Virus record (IMG/VR): IMGVR_UViG_2529292887_000008
Length of the DNA stretch: 11,155 bases
DNA from: a virus
Lineage: Duplodnaviria > Heunggongvirae > Uroviricota > Caudoviricetes
Reading direction: 5' to 3' (one strand)
Below are positions 1,315-10,229 of the stretch, in pieces. Position numbers and translations under genes: made by a program. The stretch's first letter is position 1. Each line of letters opens with the position of its first letter. A model generated the notes under the pieces. That model made no database searches. It was not told where the DNA came from and saw nothing but the letters and a program-made list of their open reading frames with translations.

Positions 1315-1419
1315 ACGAACAAGAGGCCAAAAAGAATACAGATTTATAAGTTACTGATTTTTAATGCTTAGCTGGTTTTTTATACATTAGTGAATTACGC
1401 GTTAAAGCGTGCGAAAAAA

Positions 1420-1450
1420 GGCATAAAACAAGATTTTATGCCTTTGTATT
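1420..1450 (+). terminator. Hairpin plus T-tract, putative intrinsic terminator
   Basis: Stem GGCATAAAA (1420-1428) / TTTTATGCC (1434-1442), 5-nt loop, followed by TTTGTATT. Confidence 0.4.
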
Positions 1451-1604
1451 GATATGAATTTAAATGATTTTATCCTGATTATTCCTCTTTCTGTAAACCA
1501 TGCGACACCAACATTTGCCAACTCTGAATCATCCTGACACAATCAGACACATCCCAACGCAATAGAACACGAAATAACTCTTTAAGAAACGAAAGGGGGC
1601 AATA

Positions 1605-1793
1605 GTGTTAAGCACTGATCGGTTTATACGTGAAAAAGAATGCGAAAAGCTAACAGGCCTTAGCCGCTCATGCCGCTACCGCCTGGAAAAGGCCGGACAA
1701 TTCCCATCACGTCGTAAACTTGGTGGGCGTTCTGTTGGCTGGTCTTTATCTGAGGTTTTGGCCTGGAAGGATAGCTGCAAGGCAGTTCACTAA
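1605..1793 (+). CDS. alpA: AlpA-family (Phage_AlpA) DNA-binding transcriptional regulator, 62 aa, GTG start
   Basis: Motifs LTGLSRSCRYRLEKAGQFP...RKLGGRSVGWSLSEVLAWK match the AlpA helix-turn-helix family; RBS AAAGGGGG about 8 nt upstream of GTG at 1605; position immediately after int as in Gram-negative PICIs. Confidence 0.8.
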   Translation: MLSTDRFIREKECEKLTGLSRSCRYRLEKAGQFPSRRKLGGRSVGWSLSEVLAWKDSCKAVH

Positions 1794-1933
1794 AAAGACT
1801 GGCGGCACACAGTCGCCACACATCCACTAATACAGAGATATAACTATGAAGATTGAATATGCGCCCGAACGTGGGCGGGGATTCGTTCGCCCTGGTGAAA
1901 CTGAAAAACAACAAAATTGGGGTTTTTCAGGCA

Positions 1934-1962
1934 TAAAAAAAGCGGCCCCGATATGGAGCCGC
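1934..1962 (-). terminator. Intrinsic terminator for minus-strand module 2
   Basis: On the minus strand, stem GGCGGC...GCCGC (1942-1962) followed by a 7-nt T-run (complement of A-run 1934-1940), downstream of the CDS ending at 2037. Confidence 0.5.
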
Positions 1963-2036
1963 CTTTCTGAACAATTAACCTGCTGCGCCTTATGTGTATG
2001 TGATCCCAAACATAAGCACGGGAATGATAGCCGCTA

Positions 2037-2240
2037 TCAGGCTGGTGGGCAATTACCTTGCTTGTTGGGGCCGTATTGTGCTGCCATTTTCATCCGTTCA
2101 GAACGTGAATATTTTTTTAGAAACTCATCAAGGACAAAAGCGCATGGAGCGAATCTTTCTGATTCATGCTCGAGCGCCATATTTTCGTGCTCTCTGTTCG
2201 TTTTTTGCGATGGTGTATTGGTTGATTCTTTATTGGTCAT
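2037..2240 (-). CDS. Small hypothetical protein (67 aa), paralogue of 2698-2925
   Basis: Shares N-terminus MTN(K/N) and motif ERFAPCAFVLDEFLKKYSRS / EKFALEDFVDKYPRR and a C-terminal PP(A/G) with the 75-aa protein at 2698-2925; preceded by the same conserved ~45-bp leader. Confidence 0.5.
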   Translation of the reverse strand: MTNKESTNTPSQKTNREHENMALEHESERFAPCAFVLDEFLKKYSRSERMKMAAQYGPNKQGNCPPA

Positions 2241-2246
2241 TGTGTG

Positions 2247-2294
2247 TACCTGTAAAGCAATGCGCCGGAGTTCCTCACGCCACGGCGCTGATGT
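2247..2294 (-). promoter_or_regulatory. Conserved ~45-bp intergenic element (copy 2) between RHH gene and small-protein gene
   Basis: CCTGTAAAGCAATGCGCCGgAGttCCTCACgCCACGGCGCTGAT nearly identical to 2931-2980; contains inverted repeat GCGCCG...CGGCGC (6-bp stem, 15-nt loop) followed on the transcribed strand by AUUGCUUU. Confidence 0.45.
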
Positions 2295-2297
2295 TTT

Positions 2298-2477
2298 TTA
2301 TTCTTTGGGTTCAATACCGCGTTGCTGTAATTCTTTTCGGATTATTCGTTTTATCCAAGCAGCTAAAGAGTCATCACCGTCTTGTTGTTGTGCTTTTTCC
2401 ATCTTTTCCCGTAAGTCAGGATCTAAACGGAACTGGAAAGGAGGATTACCACGCCTTTCATTCTTGTGTGTTGACAC
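2298..2477 (-). CDS. Ribbon-helix-helix (Arc/CopG-like) DNA-binding protein, 59 aa, putative GTG start; absent from the ORF track
   Basis: Manual minus-strand translation: VSTHKNERRGNPPFQFRLDPDLREKMEKAQQQDGDDSLAAWIKRIIRKELQQRGIEPKE; predicted beta-strand FQFRLD plus two helices parallels the RHH protein at 2983-3162. In-frame ATG at 2402 would remove the beta-strand, so GTG 2477 is preferred. Confidence 0.45.
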   Translation of the reverse strand: MSTHKNERRGNPPFQFRLDPDLREKMEKAQQQDGDDSLAAWIKRIIRKELQQRGIEPKE

Positions 2478-2498
2478 GTCAATTACACCCCATATAAT
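2471..2498 (+). promoter_or_regulatory. Near-consensus sigma70 promoter (TTGACA - 16 bp - TATAAT), plus strand
   Basis: -35 TTGACA at 2471-2476 and -10 TATAAT at 2493-2498; overlaps the putative start of the minus-strand RHH gene. Confidence 0.45.
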
Positions 2499-2542
2499 GT
2501 GTTTATGTGTATATACACATTACACACAACTAGCACAAAAAA

Positions 2543-2578
2543 CAACGCCCCGCAGTGATGGGAACACATACGGGGCGT
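2543..2578 (-). terminator. Hairpin with downstream U-tract on minus strand (putative terminator between modules); also 5' part of repeated leader element copy A
   Basis: Stem ACGCCCCG (2543-2550) / CGGGGCGT (2571-2578); on the minus strand followed by TGTTTTTTGTGC. Confidence 0.4.
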
Positions 2579-2665
2579 CTAACCAAACCATTAATTGAGG
2601 TAACGATTATGGTTATAAAAGAGCATAGCTTACTCTTTATACACACACAAACGCCCCGGAAACGG

Positions 2666-2688
2666 AATAATCCGTTTCATAGTTCGGT
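2666..2688. terminator. Perfect 8-bp hairpin GAAACGGA-ATAA-TCCGTTTC just past the stop of the 2698-2925 gene
   Basis: Stem-loop read directly from sequence, 10 nt beyond the minus-strand CDS end; the flanks are T-rich on the plus strand and GU-rich on the minus strand. Confidence 0.4.
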
Positions 2689-2697
2689 TTTGTGCAC

Positions 2698-2925
2698 TCA
2701 TCCTGGCGGTCGGTTTTTGCCGGATTTAAGCCGCCGTGGGTATTTATCGACAAAATCTTCAAGGGCAAATTTTTCTGGTGGCACTAAGCGCGGCGCTGGT
2801 GGTGGTATTTTTGTTCTGGTTAGTTCTTCCTCAAGTCTGGCGCAGGCTTCTGACTGCCTTTGCCGGATGATTTCATCATCTTGCGTTTGCGAGTCTTGTA
2901 TTGGTGATAGTGTGTTGTTGGTCAT
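2698..2925 (-). CDS. Small hypothetical protein (75 aa), paralogue of 2037-2240
   Basis: MTNNTLSP...EKFALEDFVDKYPRRLKSGKNRPPG; shares motifs and the upstream conserved leader with the 67-aa paralogue. Confidence 0.5.
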   Translation of the reverse strand: MTNNTLSPIQDSQTQDDEIIRQRQSEACARLEEELTRTKIPPPAPRLVPPEKFALEDFVDKYPRRLKSGKNRPPG

Positions 2926-2930
2926 GATAC

Positions 2931-2980
2931 TGCCCTGTAAAGCAATGCGCCGTAGTACCTCACACCACGGCGCTGATAGT
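2931..2980 (-). promoter_or_regulatory. Conserved ~45-bp intergenic element (copy 1) between RHH gene and small-protein gene
   Basis: CCTGTAAAGCAATGCGCCGtAGtaCCTCACaCCACGGCGCTGAT; differs from copy 2 only at loop positions of the GCGCCG/CGGCGC hairpin. Confidence 0.45.
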
Positions 2981-2982
2981 GA

Positions 2983-3162
2983 TTATTCTGATTCTTTGGC
3001 CTTGCGACGCTGGCGGTATTCAACTTCCCGCTTTAATGCAGCTGTAACAAACTGCCCTGTACTTTCGCCGGGCATTTTTACCGCCTCAACATTGTTCATA
3101 ACTTCATGTGGAACCCTTGCCGCAACTGTTTGTGATTTTGCGTTTACTGCTTTTGTCGCCAT
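2983..3162 (-). CDS. Ribbon-helix-helix (Arc/CopG/MetJ-like) DNA-binding protein, 59 aa from ATG 3162 (ORF track starts at GTG 3171)
   Basis: MATKAVNAKSQTVAARVPHEVMNNVEAVKMPGESTGQFVTAALKREVEYRQRRKAKESE: beta-strand TVAARV, helix A, G-x-S/T turn, helix B; SD GAGGGG 8 nt upstream of ATG 3162. Confidence 0.6.
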   Translation of the reverse strand: MATKAVNAKSQTVAARVPHEVMNNVEAVKMPGESTGQFVTAALKREVEYRQRRKAKESE

Positions 3163-3212
3163 GTTGAGCACCCCTCATAAAAAACAAATGCAGTATGCAG
3201 GAAAAAAAATAA

Positions 3213-3288
3213 GTGTTCAACACTTGACGTGTTTAACACCTCGATTTAAATTGGTGTTCAACACCTTATTTAGGCAAGGTGTTGAAAC
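3213..3288. promoter_or_regulatory. Operator array (4 copies of palindromic GTGTT-N-AACAC) overlapping a plus-strand promoter
   Basis: GTGTTCAACAC 3213-3223, GTGTTTAACAC 3229-3239, GTGTTCAACAC 3254-3264, GTGTTGAAAC 3279-3288; candidate -35 TTGACG at 3224-3229 and -10 TAAATT 3247-3252 between the divergent RHH gene and the replication operon. Confidence 0.5.
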
Positions 3289-3354
3289 GACGAAACCCCG
3301 CACTGTAGGAGCAGTAACGGGGCTTCTAACCAACAACGTAAACGAGGAGCCGTT

Positions 3355-3552
3355 ATGGTTGCTGTAAATCATATACCACACCTTGTACACACACAAACTG
3401 CCTTTGTGTGGCGTTTTCTGGCACTGAGTGCCGGAGAATCTCAAATCATCCACGTAACCGCCTGGACGGAACGCGAAGCGCGTAGCCGTTGCCCGTCCGG
3501 TTGTGTTGCTGTATTTGCCGCCCGTATTCGTCAGGGGGTATGCCGTGCTTAA
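3355..3552 (+). CDS. Hypothetical protein (65 aa), first ORF of rightward operon
   Basis: Strong SD GAGGAG 5 nt upstream of ATG 3355; the first ~45 nt belong to a repeated leader element (see findings), so coding status is uncertain. Confidence 0.35.
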   Translation: MVAVNHIPHLVHTQTAFVWRFLALSAGESQIIHVTAWTEREARSRCPSGCVAVFAARIRQGVCRA

Positions 3553-3730
3553 AACCTTCCGCGTTTTTTCCCGTGCTGTTAACAAGCGCGGCTATACCGT
3601 TGGCATCACGCAGAACGTGAAGGCCGTTAATATGCAAGCGGCGATTGATTCAGTAATCAGTAATTCCGGTAAAGCAGGTTTATCACAAGTCATTATTTCA
3701 GCAGTGTATGAATTAAAAGAGGTGCATTAA
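3545..3730 (+). CDS. Hypothetical protein (61 aa from GTG 3545; ORF track frame opens at 3503)
   Basis: SD AGGGGG 8 nt upstream of GTG 3545, which overlaps the stop of the preceding ORF (GTGCTTAA). Confidence 0.4.
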   Translation: MLKTFRVFSRAVNKRGYTVGITQNVKAVNMQAAIDSVISNSGKAGLSQVIISAVYELKEVH

Positions 3731-3921
3731 TGAAGGAAATTACATTACACGAAGCCGCTGAACGTGCGCACCAGACAGAAATTATTTGCCGCCTTCTTGA
3801 GGTGTACCCTGATAAATTAAATGATGGTGATATATCCGCATTAGCTGGCCTTCTGGCAAAACTGTCAGGAAGTGTTGCGCTGTGGTTAATTGATGAGAGA
3901 GCCGAACGCTATGAAAAATAA
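3730..3921 (+). CDS. Hypothetical protein (63 aa)
   Basis: ATG overlaps preceding stop (TAATG at 3728-3732), suggesting translational coupling; protein-like composition. Confidence 0.5.
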   Translation: MKEITLHEAAERAHQTEIICRLLEVYPDKLNDGDISALAGLLAKLSGSVALWLIDERAERYEK

Positions 3922-4153
3922 TAAACTGGCGACCAGTGAATTAAGAAGCCTTGCCAACAGCGCAATATCTTTAAACAACGCAGCAAACGAAGTAATGAAT
4001 ATGTGGCTTCAGTCGCTGGTGAATAATGAACGCGATGAATCAACTGCAAGATTAATATTAGCCGTTTCTGAATTACTGGATAGTTCAACCAGCAAAATAG
4101 AGAGCATATCAGAGAAGATTAACGGCTTATCAGGTCACGCTATCGGAGAATAA
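3911..4153 (+). CDS. Hypothetical protein (80 aa from ATG 3911; track start 3890 is TTG)
   Basis: ATG 3911 overlaps the upstream stop (ATGAAAAATAA); predicted helical. Confidence 0.5.
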   Translation: MKNNKLATSELRSLANSAISLNNAANEVMNMWLQSLVNNERDESTARLILAVSELLDSSTSKIESISEKINGLSGHAIGE

Positions 4154-4158
4154 AAATA

Positions 4159-4458
4159 ATGAAACTTAAATATTCTGGCTTAACTGCCAGTGGCAACACT
4201 CACCCTAAATTTACGCGCGGTGATATTTACCGCGACCAGTACGGCGGCACGGTAATGATTAAGGGCGTGGCGGGACGGTGCGTAACTTACCGCCGTGAAG
4301 GTTACGAATATGATTGCGTGATGCCTGTTTATCAGTTCCGGCGTGATTTTTCTCTGGTACAGACCGCGCCGCATAACGTGCCCACCAGCAACGCCAGGGC
4401 ACGGGCAAACATCCAGAAGCTGAAAACCATGATTAACGGATTCAGGGGTAAAAAATGA
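4159..4458 (+). CDS. Hypothetical protein (99 aa)
   Basis: SD GGAGA 9 nt upstream of ATG 4159; stop overlaps the primase start (ATGA at 4455-4458). Confidence 0.55.
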   Translation: MKLKYSGLTASGNTHPKFTRGDIYRDQYGGTVMIKGVAGRCVTYRREGYEYDCVMPVYQFRRDFSLVQTAPHNVPTSNARARANIQKLKTMINGFRGKK

Positions 4459-6203
4459 AACTGGCACCGAACGTAAAAAAACAGCCACGCGGAATAAAAC
4501 ACAAAGACACAGAGGTAATTATCTTTGCGGGTAGTGATGCCTGGTCGCACGCGAAACAATGGCAGGAGCAGGATGGCCCCGCATCCGGCGATAATGTGCC
4601 GCCTGTGTGGCTTGGGCCAAAGCAGCTTGCCGAACTTGATGCGCTGAAAATTGTTCCGGATGGGAAAAAGCGCGTAAGGCTGTACCAGGCCGGAGAACTG
4701 GATTTAGTGGAGACCAAAAAGATTGGTCAGAAGCTGGCGGCGGCAGATATTCAGGACGCAAATTTTTACCACGAAGGAATGCACGTCCAGAAGTGTGAAA
4801 ACTGGCGGCGCTATCTGAATGCTGAGCGTGAAAATATTGCCGCAGGGCTTACCATGCCGGAGCAGAAAAATACGCAACTGGCACAAATGGCAGACAGTGA
4901 GCGCGCACAGATGCTTGCTGGTCGATTTGATGGCGTTTGTGTGCATCCGGAAAGTGAAATCGTTCACGTATGGCGCGGCGGGGTATGGTGTCCGGTCAGC
5001 ACAATGGAACTTAGCCGCGAAATGGTGGCGATCTATTCAGAGCACAGGGCCACTTTCAGCAAGCGCGTAATCAATAACGCCGTGGAAGCATTAAAAGTTA
5101 TTGCCGAACCAATGGGCGAGCCGTCCGGCGATTTGTTGCCGTTCGCCAATGGTGCGCTTGACCTGAAAACAGGGGAATTTTCCCCGCACACGCCGGAGAA
5201 CTGGATCACCACGCACAACGGCATTGAATACACGCCACCAGCACCAGGGGAGAATATCCGCGACAACGCGCCAAACTTTCATAAATGGCTTGATCACGCA
5301 GCCGGAAAAGACCCGCGCAAGATGATGCGTATATGTGCCGCGCTGTACATGATTATGGCGAACCGGTACGACTGGCAGATGTTTATTGAGGCCACCGGAG
5401 ACGGCGGGAGCGGTAAAAGTACATTCACACACATAGCCAGCCTTCTGGCAGGGAAACAGAACACGGTAAGCGCTGAAATGACATCGCTTGATGATGCTGG
5501 TGGACGTGCGCAGGTTGTCGGGAGTCGTCTTATCGTCCTGGCAGACCAGCCGAAATATACAGGCGAAGGAACGGGCATCAAGAAAATCACGGGCGGCGAC
5601 CCCGTGGAAATAAACCCGAAATATGAAAAGCGTTTCACGGCGGTAATCAGGGCGGTGGTGCTGGCGACCAATAATAACCCGATGATATTCACCGAACGGG
5701 CCGGAGGTGTGGCACGTCGTCGCGTGATTTTCCGTTTCGACAATATTGTTAGTGAGGCCGAAAAAGACAGGGAACTACCGGAAAAAATTGCGGCTGAAAT
5801 CCCCGTTATTATCCGCCGCTTGCTGGCGAACTTTACCGACCCTGAAAAGGCGAGGGCTTTACTACTGGAACAGCGTGACGGTGATGAAGCACTGGCAATA
5901 AAGCAACAGACGGATCCGGTTATTGAGTTTTGCCAGTTCCTGAATTTTCTGGAGGAAGCGCGCGGCCTGATGATGGGTGGCGGTGGTGATTCAGTGAAGT
6001 ACACGACCAGGAACAGCCTTTACCGCGTCTATCTGGCGTTTATGGCATACGCAGGCAGGAGCAAACCGCTAAACGTGGCTGAGTTCAGCAAGGCCATGAA
6101 GCCAGCGGCGAAAGTTTACGGGCATGAATATATTACGCGAAAAGTTAAGGGAGTAACGCAGACCAACGCAATTACAACAGACGATTGCGACGCGTTTTTA
6201 TAA
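4455..6203 (+). CDS. Replication initiator: P4-alpha / D5-family primase-helicase (582 aa)
   Basis: Walker A GDGGSGKST (nt ~5401-5427), Walker B-like RLIVLADQ, and overall resemblance to the phage/plasmid primase P4-family C-terminal domain; SD AGGGG upstream; iteron origin immediately downstream as in PICIs. Confidence 0.88.
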   Translation: MKLAPNVKKQPRGIKHKDTEVIIFAGSDAWSHAKQWQEQDGPASGDNVPPVWLGPKQLAELDALKIVPDGKKRVRLYQAGELDLVETKKIGQKLAAADIQDANFYHEGMHVQKCENWRRYLNAERENIAAGLTMPEQKNTQLAQMADSERAQMLAGRFDGVCVHPESEIVHVWRGGVWCPVSTMELSREMVAIYSEHRATFSKRVINNAVEALKVIAEPMGEPSGDLLPFANGALDLKTGEFSPHTPENWITTHNGIEYTPPAPGENIRDNAPNFHKWLDHAAGKDPRKMMRICAALYMIMANRYDWQMFIEATGDGGSGKSTFTHIASLLAGKQNTVSAEMTSLDDAGGRAQVVGSRLIVLADQPKYTGEGTGIKKITGGDPVEINPKYEKRFTAVIRAVVLATNNNPMIFTERAGGVARRRVIFRFDNIVSEAEKDRELPEKIAAEIPVIIRRLLANFTDPEKARALLLEQRDGDEALAIKQQTDPVIEFCQFLNFLEEARGLMMGGGGDSVKYTTRNSLYRVYLAFMAYAGRSKPLNVAEFSKAMKPAAKVYGHEYITRKVKGVTQTNAITTDDCDAFL

Positions 6204-6217
6204 TTTTTTGTAAAAGC

Positions 6218-6441
6218 CCTCTACCCCATCTACCTGAATGAAATAAATACATATTATTCAACATGATAAGTGGGTAGAGGGCCAGGTAGAAGGCTAATAA
6301 AAGCTCTCTACCTCTTCTACCTGATTTTATCAGTTTCAGGTAGCAGGGTAGACGGCAGGTAGAGGAGCTCAAAAAGCTATCTACCCGCTGAAAGCCGCGC
6401 CATTACTGACATGATGAGCATTCGGGTAGATGGGTAGAGGG
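6218..6441. repeat. Iteron cluster (putative replication origin): at least 12 copies of core GGTAGA in alternating orientation blocks
   Basis: CCTCTACC 6218-6225, CCATCTACC 6226-6234, GGGTAGAGG 6272-6280, CAGGTAGAAGG 6283-6293, CTCTCTACC 6304-6312, TCTTCTACC 6313-6321, CAGGTAGCAG 6337-6346, GGGTAGACGG 6347-6356, CAGGTAGAGG 6357-6366, CTATCTACCC 6378-6387, GGGTAGATGG 6424-6433, GGGTAGAGGG 6432-6441. Confidence 0.65.
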
Positions 6442-7445: not shown

Positions 7446-7652
7446 ATGGCAGAAGAGAAAAAAGGCGGTGTTTCGGTGTACATAAGCCCCGAAATCGTGG
7501 AGGTGCTCAAGCAGCGCCACAAAAAAAACTATGAGGCTGGCGTAGCGGCTGGACTGGATCCGCTGATGACGCCGGAGCCGTCGATAGGTTCACTTGTGCG
7601 CTCTTATTTACTTGCGGCGCTTGGGATGCATAAAAATTATGGGGGTGAATAA
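7446..7652 (+). CDS. Hypothetical protein (68 aa), possibly RHH-like
   Basis: SD AAGAGGA upstream; the stretch VSVYISPEIVEVLKQRHKK suggests a beta-strand followed by a helix; stop overlaps capsid gene start (TAATG). Confidence 0.5.
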   Translation: MAEEKKGGVSVYISPEIVEVLKQRHKKNYEAGVAAGLDPLMTPEPSIGSLVRSYLLAALGMHKNYGGE

Positions 7653-8707
7653 TGGCAGGCAAAGCAACGGCACTTAACACTAACCAGCTTTTTGCGTACC
7701 TGAATCGCGGGGATATTGCGGAATTTAAATTCAGTCCGCTGTTTACCACGCTGTTTTTCCCGAACGTGGCGACATTCAGCACCCAAAACATCATGCTGGA
7801 TACCCTGGACATTGAAGAAGTCACCATGTCGGCGTTTTGTTCGCCTATGGTTGGCAGCCAGGTACAGCGCGATAAAGGATACGAAACCAGCACGATTAAA
7901 CCTGGCTACATGAAGCCAAAGCACGAAATCGATCCAACAAAAACCATCATGCGCATGGCTGGAGAAGATCCGGCACAGCTTAACGACCCTACCTACCGAC
8001 GTATGCGCCTGATTACTGGCAACATGCGCCGCCAGGTAAACGCCATTAAAGCGCGCGTGGAATGGCTGGCGGTGAATGCGATAACGACCGGAAAAAACAT
8101 TATTGAGGGCGAAGGCATAGAACGCTATGAAATAGACTGGAAAATACCGGAAAACTGCATCATAGAGCAGGGCAAGGGTAAAAAATGGTCCGAGCAGGAT
8201 AAAGAGATGCACGACCCAATCTATGACATCGAGCTTTATGCTGATCAGGCTGGTTGCCCCGCAAACGTCATGATTATGGGCGCTGAGGTATGGCGCACGT
8301 TACGCAGCTTTAAAAAATTCCGTGAGCTGTACGATCTTTCCCGTGGTTCAGAATCCGCCGCAGAACTGGCCTGTAAAAACCTGGGCGAAGTGGTGAGCTT
8401 TAAAGGCTATCTGGGCGATATTGCCCTTATCGTCTATTCCGGCAAATACGCTGACAGCGACGGCACAGAAAAATATTTCCTTGAGCCTGATTTGCTGGTT
8501 CTGGGCAACACCAACAATAAAGGGCTGGTGGCCTATGGTGCGATAATGGATCAGGAAGCGGTAAGAACGGGCGCAACACAAAACATGTTTTACCCGAAAA
8601 ACTGGATTGAGGACGGCGATCCGGCGATTGAGTACGTGCAGACACACAGTGCACCGCAGCCGGTACCGGCAGATATTCGCAAATTTGTTACCGTCAAAAT
8701 TGGTTAA
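7652..8707 (+). CDS. Major capsid protein, lambda gpE family (351 aa)
   Basis: Conserved blocks versus lambda gpE as I recall it: EFKFSPLF..LFF, PGYMKPKHEIDP, EDPAQLNDPTYRRMR, WSEQDKEMHDPIYDIELYA, RGSESAAELACKNLGEVVSFKGYLGDIALIVYSGKY, VLGNTNNKGLVAYGAIMD, YPKNWIEDGDPAIEY...SAP; similar length (351 vs 341 aa). Confidence 0.88.
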   Translation: MAGKATALNTNQLFAYLNRGDIAEFKFSPLFTTLFFPNVATFSTQNIMLDTLDIEEVTMSAFCSPMVGSQVQRDKGYETSTIKPGYMKPKHEIDPTKTIMRMAGEDPAQLNDPTYRRMRLITGNMRRQVNAIKARVEWLAVNAITTGKNIIEGEGIERYEIDWKIPENCIIEQGKGKKWSEQDKEMHDPIYDIELYADQAGCPANVMIMGAEVWRTLRSFKKFRELYDLSRGSESAAELACKNLGEVVSFKGYLGDIALIVYSGKYADSDGTEKYFLEPDLLVLGNTNNKGLVAYGAIMDQEAVRTGATQNMFYPKNWIEDGDPAIEYVQTHSAPQPVPADIRKFVTVKIG

Positions 8708-9686: not shown

Positions 9687-10229
9687 ATGAAATCTCATCT
9701 GATGAACAAAAAAAACATGGCGAAAAGCTGCCGTGTAAGTGCGACAGCGTTCGACAAGTGGGGAGTGACTCCCGTTGAACGTAAAGGCCGTGAGGCGTTT
9801 TATGATGTTGCCAGCGTGATAGACAATAGGGTTAACAATGCAATTAGCCAGCTTACAAACGACAAAGGCGATATTGATGATGATGAACTCTTACGAGTCA
9901 GGATCAGATTACTGACAGCACAGGCGGAGGCGCAGGAACTTAAAAACGAGCGCGATCGCGGTGACGTGATTGATACTGAGTTTTGCCTGTACGCGCTTTC
10001 AAAGCTGGCGAGTCAGATTTCATCAATCATGGACAGCCTCCCGCTTACTATGCAAAGGAGCTTCCCACAGATTACCCCCGCCATGCTGGACAGGCTTAAA
10101 AGGGAAGTGGTTAAAGCCTGTAATGCCAGTGCCAGAGTTGCCGACAACCTCCCACAGATACTGGCTGATTACTTGAAAGAAACAACCGGAAACGTACCGG
10201 AAAAGTTGCTACAGAAGAAAGGCAAGTAA
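9687..10229 (+). CDS. Small terminase subunit, lambda Nu1-like (180 aa; ATG 9702 aligns better with the Nu1 N-terminus)
   Basis: LTAQAEAQELKNERDRGDVIDTEFCLYALSKLASQISSIMDSLPLTMQRSFPQ and LKREVVKACNASA parallel lambda Nu1 (LTRAQADAQELKNARDSAEVVETAFCTFVLSRIAGEIASILDGLPLSVQRRFPE...FLKRDIIKAMNKAA); N-terminus MNKKNMAKS...FDKWG parallels MEVNKKQLADIFG...QNWQEQG. Confidence 0.82.
   Translation: MKSHLMNKKNMAKSCRVSATAFDKWGVTPVERKGREAFYDVASVIDNRVNNAISQLTNDKGDIDDDELLRVRIRLLTAQAEAQELKNERDRGDVIDTEFCLYALSKLASQISSIMDSLPLTMQRSFPQITPAMLDRLKREVVKACNASARVADNLPQILADYLKETTGNVPEKLLQKKGK

What the first reader, a model, noticed from the sequence alone, without database searches (positions are those of the whole stretch)
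2037..3162. Tandem duplicated, diverged modules on the minus strand, each encoding an RHH DNA-binding protein followed by a small MTN-x protein
Two modules (RHH 2983-3162 + 75 aa 2698-2925; RHH 2298-2477 + 67 aa 2037-2240) share architecture and short protein motifs but have clearly diverged, including in the RHH beta-strand that normally specifies operator recognition (TVAARV versus FQFRLD). They sit between alpA and the replication operon, divergent from the operator-rich promoter at 3213-3288, where a satellite master repressor would be expected. An RHH gene followed by a small partner gene also resembles type II toxin-antitoxin or repressor/anti-repressor pairs. The duplication with divergence suggests two control circuits of different specificity, possibly responding to different helper phages, or an immunity/addiction function. 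I could not assign the small proteins to a family.
Basis: partly seen in the sequence, partly recalled or inferred. Interest (0 to 1): 0.72.

Follow-up and report, generated by a model that had tools for sequence, protein, structure and literature searches.

The report
Swappable repressor cassettes in a phage satellite
Two small gene cassettes in an E. coli phage-satellite island each encode a DNA-binding repressor matched to its own operator sites over a promoter facing the island's replication genes, so they are probably the missing "off switch" of these satellites and not toxin-antitoxin pairs.

Summary
The four minus-strand ORFs exist at the stated coordinates. The window is an EcCICFT073-type PICI. 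RHH1 (2983-3162) is a YlcI/YnfO-family protein with a predicted ribbon-helix-helix fold. RHH2 (2298-2477) is a distant, Arc/Mnt-like relative. The two small proteins belong to one tiny orphan family found almost only in Escherichia/Shigella.

The modules are not a local duplication that diverged. They are exchangeable cassettes bounded by two conserved DNA blocks: a junction hairpin between the RHH stop and the small-gene start, and a terminator hairpin. In 52 cassettes from other islands, 16 RHH types pair freely with about five small-protein types.

Each RHH type has its own operator sequence at fixed positions (about -100, -75 and -30). The same beta-strand goes with the same operator in Salmonella, Klebsiella and Xenorhabdus satellites. 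The operators cover a divergent plus-strand promoter that faces the Icd-like/primase operon.

Best reading: the RHH proteins are type-specific immunity repressors, and the small gene is co-transcribed cargo. The toxin-antitoxin reading is not supported.

Unexpectedly, a plus-strand reading frame stays open through every cassette. This resembles the translation-dependent read-through of P4 vis-eta.

The parts
2983..3162 (-). RHH1: YlcI/YnfO-family ribbon-helix-helix protein (59 aa), the proposed repressor of cassette 1
2698..2925 (-). small1: 75-aa protein of an orphan family, with a long helix, a Pro-rich linker, a short FALEDFVDKY helix and a basic ...NRPPG tail
   Evidence: the sense frame has the highest synonymous fraction (0.40) among 13 alleles
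2298..2477 (-). RHH2: Arc/Mnt-like RHH protein (59 aa, GTG start), the proposed repressor of cassette 2
   Evidence: phrog_228 Arc-like 1.5e-6; YlcI/YnfO 20 bits, below cut-off; Mnt best PDB hit E 0.42; hhalign to the RHH1 family E 5e-4
2037..2240 (-). small2: 67-aa member of the same orphan family (FVLDEFLKKY core)
   Evidence: phrog_21027 2e-12; family alignments
2915..2989 (-). Junction block of cassette 1: RHH stop, GC-rich hairpin (2947-2973), ATTGCTTTACAGG with the SD, and ATGACCAA
   Evidence: sense-RNA fold -24.3 kcal/mol, z -2.4; found in 1674 of 5426 E. coli genomes
2230..2304 (-). Junction block of cassette 2 (hairpin about 2262-2288, with one mismatch)
3213..3264 (.). Three RHH1-type operators, GTGTT(C/T)AACAC, at 3213-3223, 3229-3239 and 3254-3264; a degenerate fourth at about 3279-3289
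   Evidence: 0 of 200 shuffles reach the count; the same operators accompany the same beta-strand in Salmonella and Klebsiella
3224..3252 (+). P1(+): TTGACG-17-TAAATT promoter facing the Icd-like/primase operon, bracketed and overlapped by the operators
3192..3220 (-). Candidate P1(-) promoter for RHH1 (-35 TTGAAC inside an operator, 17 nt, -10 CATACT; 8/12 to consensus)
   Evidence: read from the sequence; below the scan threshold
2471..2498 (+). P2(+): perfect consensus sigma-70 promoter TTGACA-16-TATAAT; its -35 overlaps the RHH2 start codon
   Evidence: 12/12; same position in other Arc-like cassettes
2495..2522 (.). Candidate RHH2 operators: palindrome ATGTGTATATACACAT (2505-2520) flanked by TAATGTGT / ACACATTA
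   Evidence: (I13)
2546..2577 (-). T1 hairpin: intrinsic terminator of cassette 1 on the minus strand (T-run follows); not a terminator on the plus strand
   Evidence: D2, D3; z -5.65 minus strand, z -3.87 plus strand
3294..3325 (-). Second copy of the T1 hairpin, in the 5' leader of the Icd-like operon; the stem co-varies in Salmonella, Klebsiella and Xenorhabdus
   Evidence: (D3)
1935..1963 (-). Intrinsic terminator of cassette 2 (GC stem plus T7 on the minus strand)
1846..2598 (+). Leader ORF1 (250 codons), antisense to all of cassette 2; its stop TGA 2596-2598 overlaps the SD GAGG 2597-2600 of ORF2
   Evidence: no amino-acid constraint in its non-overlapped 5' part
2609..3367 (+). Leader ORF2 (frame open from 2534; ATG 2609 with an SD), antisense to all of cassette 1. 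Its N-terminus MVIKEH..HTQT is a paralogue of the Icd-like N-terminus. Its stop at 3365-3367 overlaps the Icd-like start
3355..3552 (+). Icd-like gene, first gene of the replication operon
   Evidence: NF033153 64.7 bits; PGAP annotation
1605..1793 (+). alpA, the helper-induced activator of Gram-negative PICIs, upstream of the leader ORFs
   Evidence: PMC6092414

Best explanation
The window carries two exchangeable 'immunity cassettes' in the variable zone between alpA and the replication operon of an EcCICFT073-type PICI.

Each cassette has these parts:
- a back-to-back promoter pair;
- a ribbon-helix-helix repressor, whose N-terminal beta-strand recognises two to four copies of a cassette-specific operator;
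- a conserved intercistronic hairpin;
- a small helical cargo protein;
- an intrinsic terminator that acts on the minus strand only.

Inferred mechanism: each RHH dimer array binds its own operators. This shuts off both its own leftward promoter (autoregulation) and the rightward promoter that feeds the Icd-like/primase/packaging operon. P1(+) lies at 3224-3252 and P2(+) at 2471-2498. The two RHH proteins therefore act as type-specific, Stl-like maintenance repressors. Two cassettes give two independently controlled entries into the operon.

The small protein is not a cognate toxin or partner. It sits in a cargo slot and is expressed together with the repressor while the island is quiescent. 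It most likely acts through its conserved C-terminal peptide (FALEDFLxKYPRRLKxxKNRPPG), whose binding partner is unknown.

Conserved flanks (the junction block and the T1 hairpin with the Icd-like 5' end) let cassettes be swapped by homologous recombination.

Shown here: gene reality, RHH fold, operator/beta-strand covariation, promoter positions, shuffling.
Inferred: actual binding, repression of the operon, how helper phages lift repression.
For: - Family and fold.
- Operators: three perfect GTGTTNAACAC sites cover the -35 flank, the spacer and the +1 region of P1(+), and the -35 of the RHH1 promoter.
- Covariation: in 16 RHH types the sites keep the same positions (about -100, -75, -30) but have type-specific sequences. 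Identical or near-identical beta-strands have the same operators in other genera. KSQTVAARVPH goes with GTGTTNAACAC in E. coli, Salmonella and Klebsiella. KSKKLEARVPH goes with GTGTCAGCCAC in E. coli and Xenorhabdus.
- Divergent promoter at a fixed position: the -35 starts 61 nt upstream of the start codon in 8 of 12 YlcI-type cassettes. TTGACA overlaps the start codon in 3 of 4 Arc-like cassettes. One of these is a 12/12 consensus promoter in the window.
- Conserved placement: the RHH gene sits divergent from the primase operon and next to alpA/int in Salmonella, Klebsiella and Xenorhabdus satellites.
- Selection: third-codon-position excess in the sense frame (977/730/1539 differences).
- Shuffling of RHH and small-protein types.
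Against: - There is no binding or expression data. Everything about repression is inferred from sequence.
- Published work shows that AlpA over-expression alone induces EcCICFT073 (PMC6092414). A repressor, if present, must therefore be overridable by AlpA.
- I could not locate EcCICFT073 in the CFT073 genome to check that it carries such a cassette.
- A plus-strand promoter above my threshold was not found for 4 of 12 YlcI-type cassettes or for 1 of 4 Arc-like cassettes.
- RHH2 family membership is sub-threshold.
- P(-) of cassette 2 was not identified.
- The function of the small proteins remains unknown.
Confidence: 0.6

Rival explanations
1. Convergent-transcription toggle. The cassettes are embedded antisense inside a chain of translated plus-strand leader ORFs (alpA, ORF1, ORF2, Icd-like). 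Helper-induced alpA transcription reads through them. Coupled translation protects that transcript from termination. The read-through silences RHH expression by interference or antisense pairing, which flips the island to replication. This adds to the repressor model; it does not replace it.
For: - A wobble-aligned antisense frame is open over every cassette in 43 distinct cassette contexts (204-653 codons) and over whole alpA-to-Icd regions (up to 500 codons).
- In the variable non-coding 110 nt upstream of 16 RHH types, this frame has about 1-2 stops per 100 codons. The other five frames have 4-9 per 100.
- Simulation that keeps the minus-strand proteins gives P = 0.004 for cassette 1 and 0.03-0.055 for cassette 2.
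- The frame is also open in Salmonella, Klebsiella and Xenorhabdus.
- Stop/SD/start overlaps occur at 2596-2611 and 3355-3367.
- The T1 terminators act on the minus strand only.
[quoted passage not shown] AlpA-family proteins can be antiterminators (PMC7969949, PMC9371919).
Against: - No transcript or ribosome data.
- Shadow ORFs of about 190-236 codons also occur antisense to primase and capsid genes in this window, so the coding parts alone are unremarkable.
- The cassette types share conserved segments and are not fully independent samples.
- There is no amino-acid constraint on ORF1.
- The ORF1 SD is weak, and its ATG lies 53 nt after the alpA stop.
Confidence: 0.3
2. The cassettes are self-contained accessory units, moron-like or exclusion-type. 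The RHH only autoregulates its own small-gene operon and has no role in controlling the island's life cycle.
For: - The slot after the RHH gene holds different or no genes in different genera.
- The small-protein family is narrow (109 clusters at 90% identity, 27 at 50%), as expected of recently acquired cargo.
- Cassette 2 has no operon immediately next to it.
Against: - The operators cover the rightward promoter as well as the RHH promoter.
- The RHH gene is always next to the replication operon, even without cargo.
- Cassette 2 keeps a perfect consensus rightward promoter followed by an open, SD-led ORF that runs to the Icd-like start.
Confidence: 0.15
3. Type II toxin-antitoxin pairs: RHH antitoxin first, small toxin second.
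For: - Gene order, small size, and an autoregulating RHH upstream.
Against: - No toxin family hit in Pfam, NCBIfam, PHROGs or PADLOC.
- The small1 model is an extended helix plus a peptide, pTM 0.34, not a globular toxin.
- RHH types, including both C-terminal tail types, pair with every small-protein type.
- The RHH gene stands alone in Salmonella and Xenorhabdus.
- Truncated small genes occur with an intact RHH (L021).
Confidence: 0.04
4. The long plus-strand ORFs are the real genes, and the minus-strand ORFs are shadows.
For: - Plus-strand ORFs of 250-500 codons.
- PGAP calls 'Icd-like / BRO-N, incomplete' pseudogenes on that strand in some genomes.
Against: - The plus-strand ORFs have no family match except the C-terminal Icd-like domain when it is in frame.
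- The RHH frame has independent homologues and a confident fold.
- The sense frame is the most conserved: amino-acid identity 0.54 versus 0.49, and synonymous fraction 0.40 versus 0.31.
- Each minus-strand gene has an SD, and each cassette ends in a terminator.
- ORF1 shows no codon-position bias.
Confidence: 0.02

Closest known systems
SaPI/PICI master repressor Stl (Rpr) of Gram-positive PICIs
   Same: - A regulator transcribed divergently from the replication/packaging operon.
- Highly diversified between islands.
- Expected to hold the island quiescent.
   Different: - Stl proteins are larger helix-turn-helix repressors. These are 57-101-aa RHH proteins.
- Here alpA lies on the other side, and the cassette is antisense to a plus-strand leader.
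- Relief by a helper-phage protein is unknown.
Phage P22 immI region (Arc, Mnt, Ant, sar RNA)
   Same: - A small RHH repressor is the first gene of an autoregulated operon, followed by a second gene after an intercistronic hairpin.
- RHH2's best PDB sequence hit is Mnt.
- RHH2 matches an Arc-like PHROG.
   Different: - The downstream protein is unrelated to Ant.
- No sar-like antisense promoter was predicted, and there is no Rfam hit.
- The operators also control a divergent promoter that feeds replication genes.
Satellite phage P4 immunity region (vis, eta/kil, CI RNA, alpha)
   Same: - An alpA/vis homologue, then a long ORF whose translation prevents termination, then replication genes.
- The immunity determinant is embedded in that ORF (PMC10111431).
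   Different: - P4 immunity is an RNA (CI; Rfam C4/isrK). No such RNA is detected here.
- Here immunity is protein-based, encoded on the opposite strand, and comes as swappable cassettes.
Lambdoid immunity regions (mosaic repressor/operator modules)
   Same: - A hypervariable repressor recognition element plus matching operators, flanked by conserved DNA that allows exchange.
- Three operators between back-to-back promoters.
   Different: - RHH proteins, not HTH.
- A single repressor, with no CI/Cro pair.
- 11-bp GTG-N5-CAC sites.
E. coli K-12 YlcI / YnfO (DLP12 and Qin cryptic prophages)
   Same: Same NCBIfam family as RHH1 (NF041551).
   Different: - No function was found for YlcI/YnfO in the searched literature.
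- From memory, not checked here: they sit next to the small terminase gene, not in a satellite regulatory zone.
- The junction block and the small proteins are absent from 50,697 phage records.

Membership tests
Ribbon-helix-helix (MetJ/Arc/CopG) DNA-binding proteins | Beta-strand, helix, helix fold of about 45 residues | tested here: met
Ribbon-helix-helix (MetJ/Arc/CopG) DNA-binding proteins | Binds repeated short operators near its own promoter, with specificity set by the N-terminal beta-strand | tested here: met
   In silico only. Two to five type-specific repeats at fixed positions. Operator sequence co-varies with beta-strand residues across 16 types and 4 genera.
NCBIfam NF041551 YlcI/YnfO family | Score above the curated cut-off (30 bits) | tested here: met
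   RHH1 scores 59.7 bits.
NCBIfam NF041551 YlcI/YnfO family | Score above the curated cut-off (30 bits), for RHH2 | tested here: not met
   RHH2 scores 20 bits, E 5e-4. It is a distant relative only.
Type II toxin-antitoxin system | The downstream protein belongs to a toxin family or has a toxin fold | tested here: not met
   No credible hit above any curated cut-off in Pfam, NCBIfam, PHROGs or PADLOC. AF2 gives a non-globular model.
Type II toxin-antitoxin system | Cognate, co-inherited antitoxin-toxin pairing | tested here: not met
   Free shuffling of RHH and small-protein types. RHH without a partner, or with an unrelated partner, in other genera.
Type II toxin-antitoxin system | Toxicity neutralised by the antitoxin | not testable with these tools
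   Needs expression experiments.
PICI master repressor (functional class, Stl/Rpr-like) | Encoded divergently from, and with operators over, the promoter of the replication/packaging operon | tested here: met
PICI master repressor (functional class, Stl/Rpr-like) | Repression lifted by a helper-phage product | not testable with these tools
   No data. Published work shows only that alpA is helper-induced (PMC6092414).
P22 immI Arc-Ant-sar | Antisense sar RNA promoter in the intercistronic region, and an Ant-family downstream gene | tested here: not met
   No plus-strand promoter near the junctions. No Rfam match. No Ant or KilA domains.
P4-type RNA immunity (CI/C4/isrK) | C4 or isrK covariance-model match in the zone between alpA and the replication genes | tested here: not met
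   cmscan with E up to 1 found no C4 or isrK match anywhere in the window.
P4-type translation-dependent read-through (vis-eta) | A long open ORF downstream of the alpA homologue leading into replication genes | tested here: met
   The open frame is present and statistically supported. Translation and anti-termination themselves were not tested.

The most novel reading that the evidence does not exclude
Gram-negative PICIs do have master repressors. These are hypervariable RHH proteins carried on swappable cassettes, each with co-evolving operators. The cassettes are encoded antisense inside a translation-dependent, sequence-unconstrained leader ORF chain (alpA, ORF1, ORF2, Icd-like). Helper-induced rightward transcription and translation collide with repressor expression and override it. 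This would be a protein-based, opposite-strand counterpart of P4 RNA immunity. Two cassettes would work as an OR gate for different inducing signals.
Probability: 0.25. Interest if true: 0.85.

Novelty: new variant of a known kind. Interest (0 to 1): 0.7.

Why it matters
How Gram-negative PICIs are kept silent has been an open question. [quoted passage not shown]

What this analysis offers:
- A concrete candidate: the YlcI/YnfO / Arc-like RHH proteins.
- Predicted operators for 16 specificity types.
- A direct experimental handle, namely swapping beta-strands and operators.

The junction block occurs in about 31% of complete E. coli genomes, up to 7 copies per genome. The system is therefore widespread. 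It may determine which satellites can coexist and which helpers mobilise them.

The open antisense frame suggests a rare case in which selection maintains translatability, but not protein sequence, across hypervariable genes on the opposite strand.

The analysis also gives the y-ome family YlcI/YnfO a testable function. It explains recurrent PGAP 'Icd-like/BRO-N incomplete' pseudogene calls as products of the long antisense frame.

Tried and rejected
- Rfam at E up to 1 over the whole window: no C4, isrK, sar or other credible RNA family in 1800-3400.
- tblastn of both small proteins and blastn of the junction block against 50,697 phage records: no match. RHH1 gave one weak hit, in a 16.5-kb 'phage' record whose size suggests a satellite.
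- PADLOC: nothing credible.
- PDB sequence searches with single RHH sequences: only chance-level hits.
- Covariation in the junction hairpin: the stem is invariant and the loop changes are not compensatory. Structure can be neither supported nor refuted this way.
- A sar-like antisense promoter inside the small genes: none predicted.
- The genome-contig scan used too loose a pattern. 27 of 28 hits are in unrelated, mostly GC-rich genomes and are probably chance. Only Shigella flexneri looks genuine.
- Two attempts to locate EcCICFT073 in the CFT073 chromosome by guessed coordinates failed. The link to the published AlpA reporter data remains indirect.
- The Klebsiella 84-aa partner is unrelated to the small-protein family.
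- The near-operator at the alpA start codon (1605-1615, one mismatch) is probably coincidental. The alpA N-terminus is the same in islands with other RHH types.
Full report
**Context.** The window is a phage-inducible chromosomal island of the EcCICFT073 type.
- Its plus-strand genes are int (1-1230), alpA (1605-1793), an Icd-like gene (3355-3552), a DUF4222 gene, primase (4455-6203), SSB, major capsid (7652-8707), a decoration protein and a small terminase (9687-10229).
- EcCICFT073 likewise carries capsid and decoration genes (PMC6092414).
- The finding lies in what Mageeney et al. call the dynamic 'Bro zone', between the integration and replication zones (PMC10111431).

**Observation.** All four minus-strand ORFs exist as stated, and PGAP annotates them in a 97%-identical island.
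- RHH2 (2298-2477) is sub-threshold for that family (20 bits). It matches an Arc-like PHROG at 1.5e-6. Its best PDB sequence hit is Mnt, with the beta-strand in register. It aligns to the RHH1 family profile at E 5e-4.
- The two small proteins are nearly unalignable pairwise. They belong to one orphan family with the core P-x-x-F-x-L-[ED]-x-[FY]-[LV]. The canonical members carry a longer C-terminal motif, FALEDFLxKYPRRLKxxKNRPPG.
- The family comprises 109 clusters at 90% identity and 27 at 50% identity in 1.84 billion representatives. Every cluster that carries an organism name is from Escherichia or Shigella. There is no Pfam domain.
- The small1 model is a long helix (8-39), a proline-rich linker, a short helix over the conserved core (54-61) and a disordered tail, with pTM 0.34. 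It is not a globular toxin-like fold.

- The RHH proteins do not align by BLASTP. Even so, a ~75-nt DNA block is shared by the two modules: 2230-2304 versus 2915-2989, 80% identical overall with a core of about 94%.
- The block runs from the last RHH codons through a GC-rich hairpin (GCGCCGTGG...CGGCGC), then ATTGCTTTACAGG (which carries the SD), to ATGACCAA.
- It occurs in 1674 of 5426 complete E. coli genomes, up to 7 copies per genome, and in 43 IMG/VR contigs. It is absent from 50,697 phage records.
- As sense RNA the hairpin of module 1 is stable (-24.3 kcal/mol, z -2.4). It is followed by a U-rich tract and is flagged as terminator-like. As plus-strand RNA it is not distinctive.
- Its stem is invariant, so covariation cannot be assessed.

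**Cassettes, not duplicates.** I extracted 52 cassettes from related loci.
- The RHH N-terminal ~45 residues and the upstream ~130 nt fall into 16 types in two subfamilies. One is YlcI/YnfO-like, 59 aa or a 101-aa long form. The other is Arc-like, 57-63 aa.
- The C-terminal tail (RRQRRKAKESE or QQRGIEPK[EG]), the junction and a terminator hairpin (T1: GGTTAGA[A/C]GCCCCG...CGGGGC plus a T-run) are conserved.
- The small gene comes in about five types, and any RHH type can precede any small type. The window's RHH1 is followed by three different small-protein types elsewhere. RHH2 is followed by the 58-aa type in L010 and L039.
- Islands carry one or two cassettes in any subfamily order.
- The pair in the window is therefore the product of cassette acquisition through conserved flanks. 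It did not arise by tandem duplication followed by drift.

**Operators and promoters.**
- Cassette 1 has three perfect GTGTT(C/T)AACAC sites at 3213-3223, 3229-3239 and 3254-3264. None of 200 shuffles reaches the observed count.
- These sites flank the -35, fill the spacer and cover +1 of a rightward promoter, TTGACG-17-TAAATT at 3224-3252. The first site also contains the -35 (TTGAAC) of a leftward promoter for RHH1 (-10 CATACT at 3192-3197).
- Across the YlcI-type cassettes, the sites sit at about -100, -75 and -30 from the RHH start. They have the form GTG-N5-CAC, and N5 is type-specific.
- Proteins with the same beta-strand have the same operator, even in other genera with otherwise diverged DNA:
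  - KSQT[V/I]AARVPH goes with GTGTTNAACAC in E. coli, Salmonella and Klebsiella.
  - KSKKLEARVPH goes with GTGTCAGCCAC in E. coli and Xenorhabdus.
  - QS[L/V]TARI goes with GTCTTACAC in two E. coli types.
- The rightward -35 starts exactly 61 nt upstream of the start codon in 8 of 12 YlcI-type cassettes.
- In Arc-like cassettes the -35 TTGACA overlaps the conserved MST start codons. In the window this gives a perfect 12/12 promoter at 2471-2498. It is followed by the palindrome ATGTGTATATACACAT (2505-2520) and TAATGTGT-type half-sites.
- Other Arc-like types have their own repeats, GGTAATTACC or AGGTGGTCACCT.
- This is the evidence that each RHH is the cognate repressor of a back-to-back promoter pair.

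**Conserved core versus cargo.**
- RHH1 homologues occur in Salmonella, Klebsiella, Pectobacterium, Serratia, Proteus and Xenorhabdus.
- In the three genera whose contigs I examined (Salmonella, Klebsiella and Xenorhabdus), the gene sits divergent from the primase operon, beside alpA/int. In Salmonella and Xenorhabdus there is no downstream gene. In Klebsiella there is an unrelated 84-aa gene.
- The RHH gene and its operators are therefore the conserved core. The position after the RHH is a cargo slot.
- Together with the shuffling and the absence of any toxin signature, this argues against a toxin-antitoxin pair.
- It also argues against a specific repressor/anti-repressor pair. An effector role towards a phage or host partner is not excluded.

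**Coding strand.**
- In the variable part of twelve 59-aa RHH genes, differences by sense codon position are 977/730/1539. Amino-acid identity is highest in the sense frame: 0.54, against 0.49 for the wobble-aligned antisense frame and about 0.30-0.36 for the others.
- For 13 alleles of the 75-aa gene, the synonymous fraction is 0.40 in the sense frame, 0.31 in the wobble-aligned antisense frame and 0.08-0.13 elsewhere.
- Each minus-strand gene has an SD, and each cassette ends in an intrinsic terminator.
- The minus-strand genes are real.

**The unexpected plus strand.**
- Long plus-strand ORFs run antisense through the cassettes: 1846-2598, and 2555/2609-3367, ending on the Icd-like start. 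In single-cassette islands, one ORF of 314-430 codons runs from alpA to the end of the Icd-like gene.
- PGAP turns these into 'Icd-like / BRO-N, incomplete' pseudogenes. Apart from the Icd-like C-terminus, they match no family.
- The frame is the one whose wobble positions coincide with those of the minus-strand genes.
- It is open over every cassette in 43 distinct contexts, 204-653 codons. It is also open in Salmonella (180-194 codons), Klebsiella (291) and Xenorhabdus (202).
- Within coding parts this is only mildly surprising (P about 0.2-0.6 per gene), and shadow ORFs of about 190-236 codons also exist opposite primase and capsid.
- In the type-specific non-coding 110 nt upstream of the 16 RHH types, the result is different. 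This frame has 11 stops in 592 codons as computed, and about 6 after correcting the frame choice for two types. The other frames have 23-53 stops.
- Simulations that preserve the minus-strand proteins and the dinucleotide content of the spacers give P = 0.004 for cassette 1 and 0.03-0.055 for cassette 2.
- The non-overlapped 5' part of ORF1 shows no codon-position bias (11/13/12). Openness, not protein sequence, appears to be maintained.
- The ORFs are linked. The ORF1 stop (TGA 2596-2598) overlaps a GAGG SD for ATG 2609. ORF2 begins MVIKEH..HTQT, a paralogue of the Icd-like start MVAVNH..HTQT. The ORF2 stop (3365-3367) lies 10 nt after the Icd-like ATG.
- The T1 hairpins terminate only minus-strand transcripts.
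- The closest precedent is P4. [quoted passage not shown]
- I therefore propose that helper-induced alpA transcription, and transcription from derepressed P2(+) and P1(+), is read through the cassettes under ribosome protection. It may interfere with RHH expression. I give this about 0.3 confidence.

**Comparison with what is known.**
- The module works like an immunity repressor/operator region. It resembles lambdoid mosaic immunity regions and P22 Arc/Mnt, and it resembles SaPI Stl in role. It occupies the position of P4's RNA immunity.
- It is not a member of the Stl family, which is HTH. It fails the tested defining features of P22 immI, having no Ant and no sar. It has no C4/isrK RNA.
- The PICI literature I could search does not describe it. 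Searches for PICI together with ribbon-helix-helix, and for YlcI/YnfO, returned nothing relevant. The founding paper says that a global repressor in Gram-negative PICIs is unclear.

**Verdict.**
The TA part is not.
- The small proteins remain functionally unassigned cargo.
- The open antisense frame is a separate result, with statistical support, that needs experiment.

Noticed in passing
window 2471-2498 (+): A perfect 12/12 sigma-70 consensus promoter (TTGACA-16-TATAAT) points rightward. Its -35 overlaps the RHH2 start codon. The MST start (ATG/GTG TCA ACA) of Arc-like cassettes encodes this -35 on the other strand.
   Followed up: yes
window 1846-2598 and 2534-3367 (+); L045 4512-5456; L046 4422-5714: Very long plus-strand ORFs run antisense to whole cassettes and stay open across 16 unrelated cassette types and in four genera. 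They show no amino-acid constraint. They are linked by stop/SD/start overlaps to each other and to the Icd-like gene.
   Followed up: yes
window 2546-2577 and 3294-3325: Two copies of a terminator-like hairpin with the conserved flank TCTAACCA. In plus-strand RNA the AACCA flank can pair with the AUGGUU start of ORF2 or the Icd-like gene, which could occlude the start codon. The stem co-varies in Salmonella, Klebsiella and Xenorhabdus.
   Followed up: partly
L045-L047 (E. coli O157:H7 and others): PGAP annotates 'host cell division inhibitor Icd-like protein / BRO-N domain, incomplete' pseudogenes on the strand opposite the RHH cassette. These appear to be artefacts of the long open antisense frame. 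In O157:H7 the RHH and small genes themselves are left unannotated.
   Followed up: partly
window 1605-1615: A one-mismatch copy of the RHH1 operator (GTGTTAAGCAC) coincides with the alpA start codon. It is probably coincidental, because the alpA N-terminus is the same in islands with other RHH types.
   Followed up: partly
L048/L049 3055-3294 (Salmonella satellites): A 76-aa gene in the operon downstream of the RHH-controlled promoter hits Pfam PF25738 'Derepression'. This hints at a P4 epsilon-like helper-derepression function in these satellites. I did not check whether the window has a homologue among ORFs 3503-4153.
   Followed up: no
YlcI-type long-form RHH genes (e.g. L002, L009, L022): Some cassettes encode a 101-aa RHH with an extra about 42-residue insertion (AEGSGENPLVSSLDAL...IGIKAAEEIGQL...) before the conserved tail. 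This may be an added oligomerisation or sensor domain.
   Followed up: no
window 6215-6296 (-) and 1381-1459 (+): Weak, sub-threshold Rfam hits (MIR2617, BSnc120) mark strong hairpins downstream of the primase gene and downstream of int. They are probably an origin-region or terminator structure, not RNA genes.
   Followed up: no
L021 (second cassette): One 67-aa-type small gene is truncated to 49 aa by a frameshift while its RHH gene stays intact. This fits the small gene being dispensable cargo.
   Followed up: no
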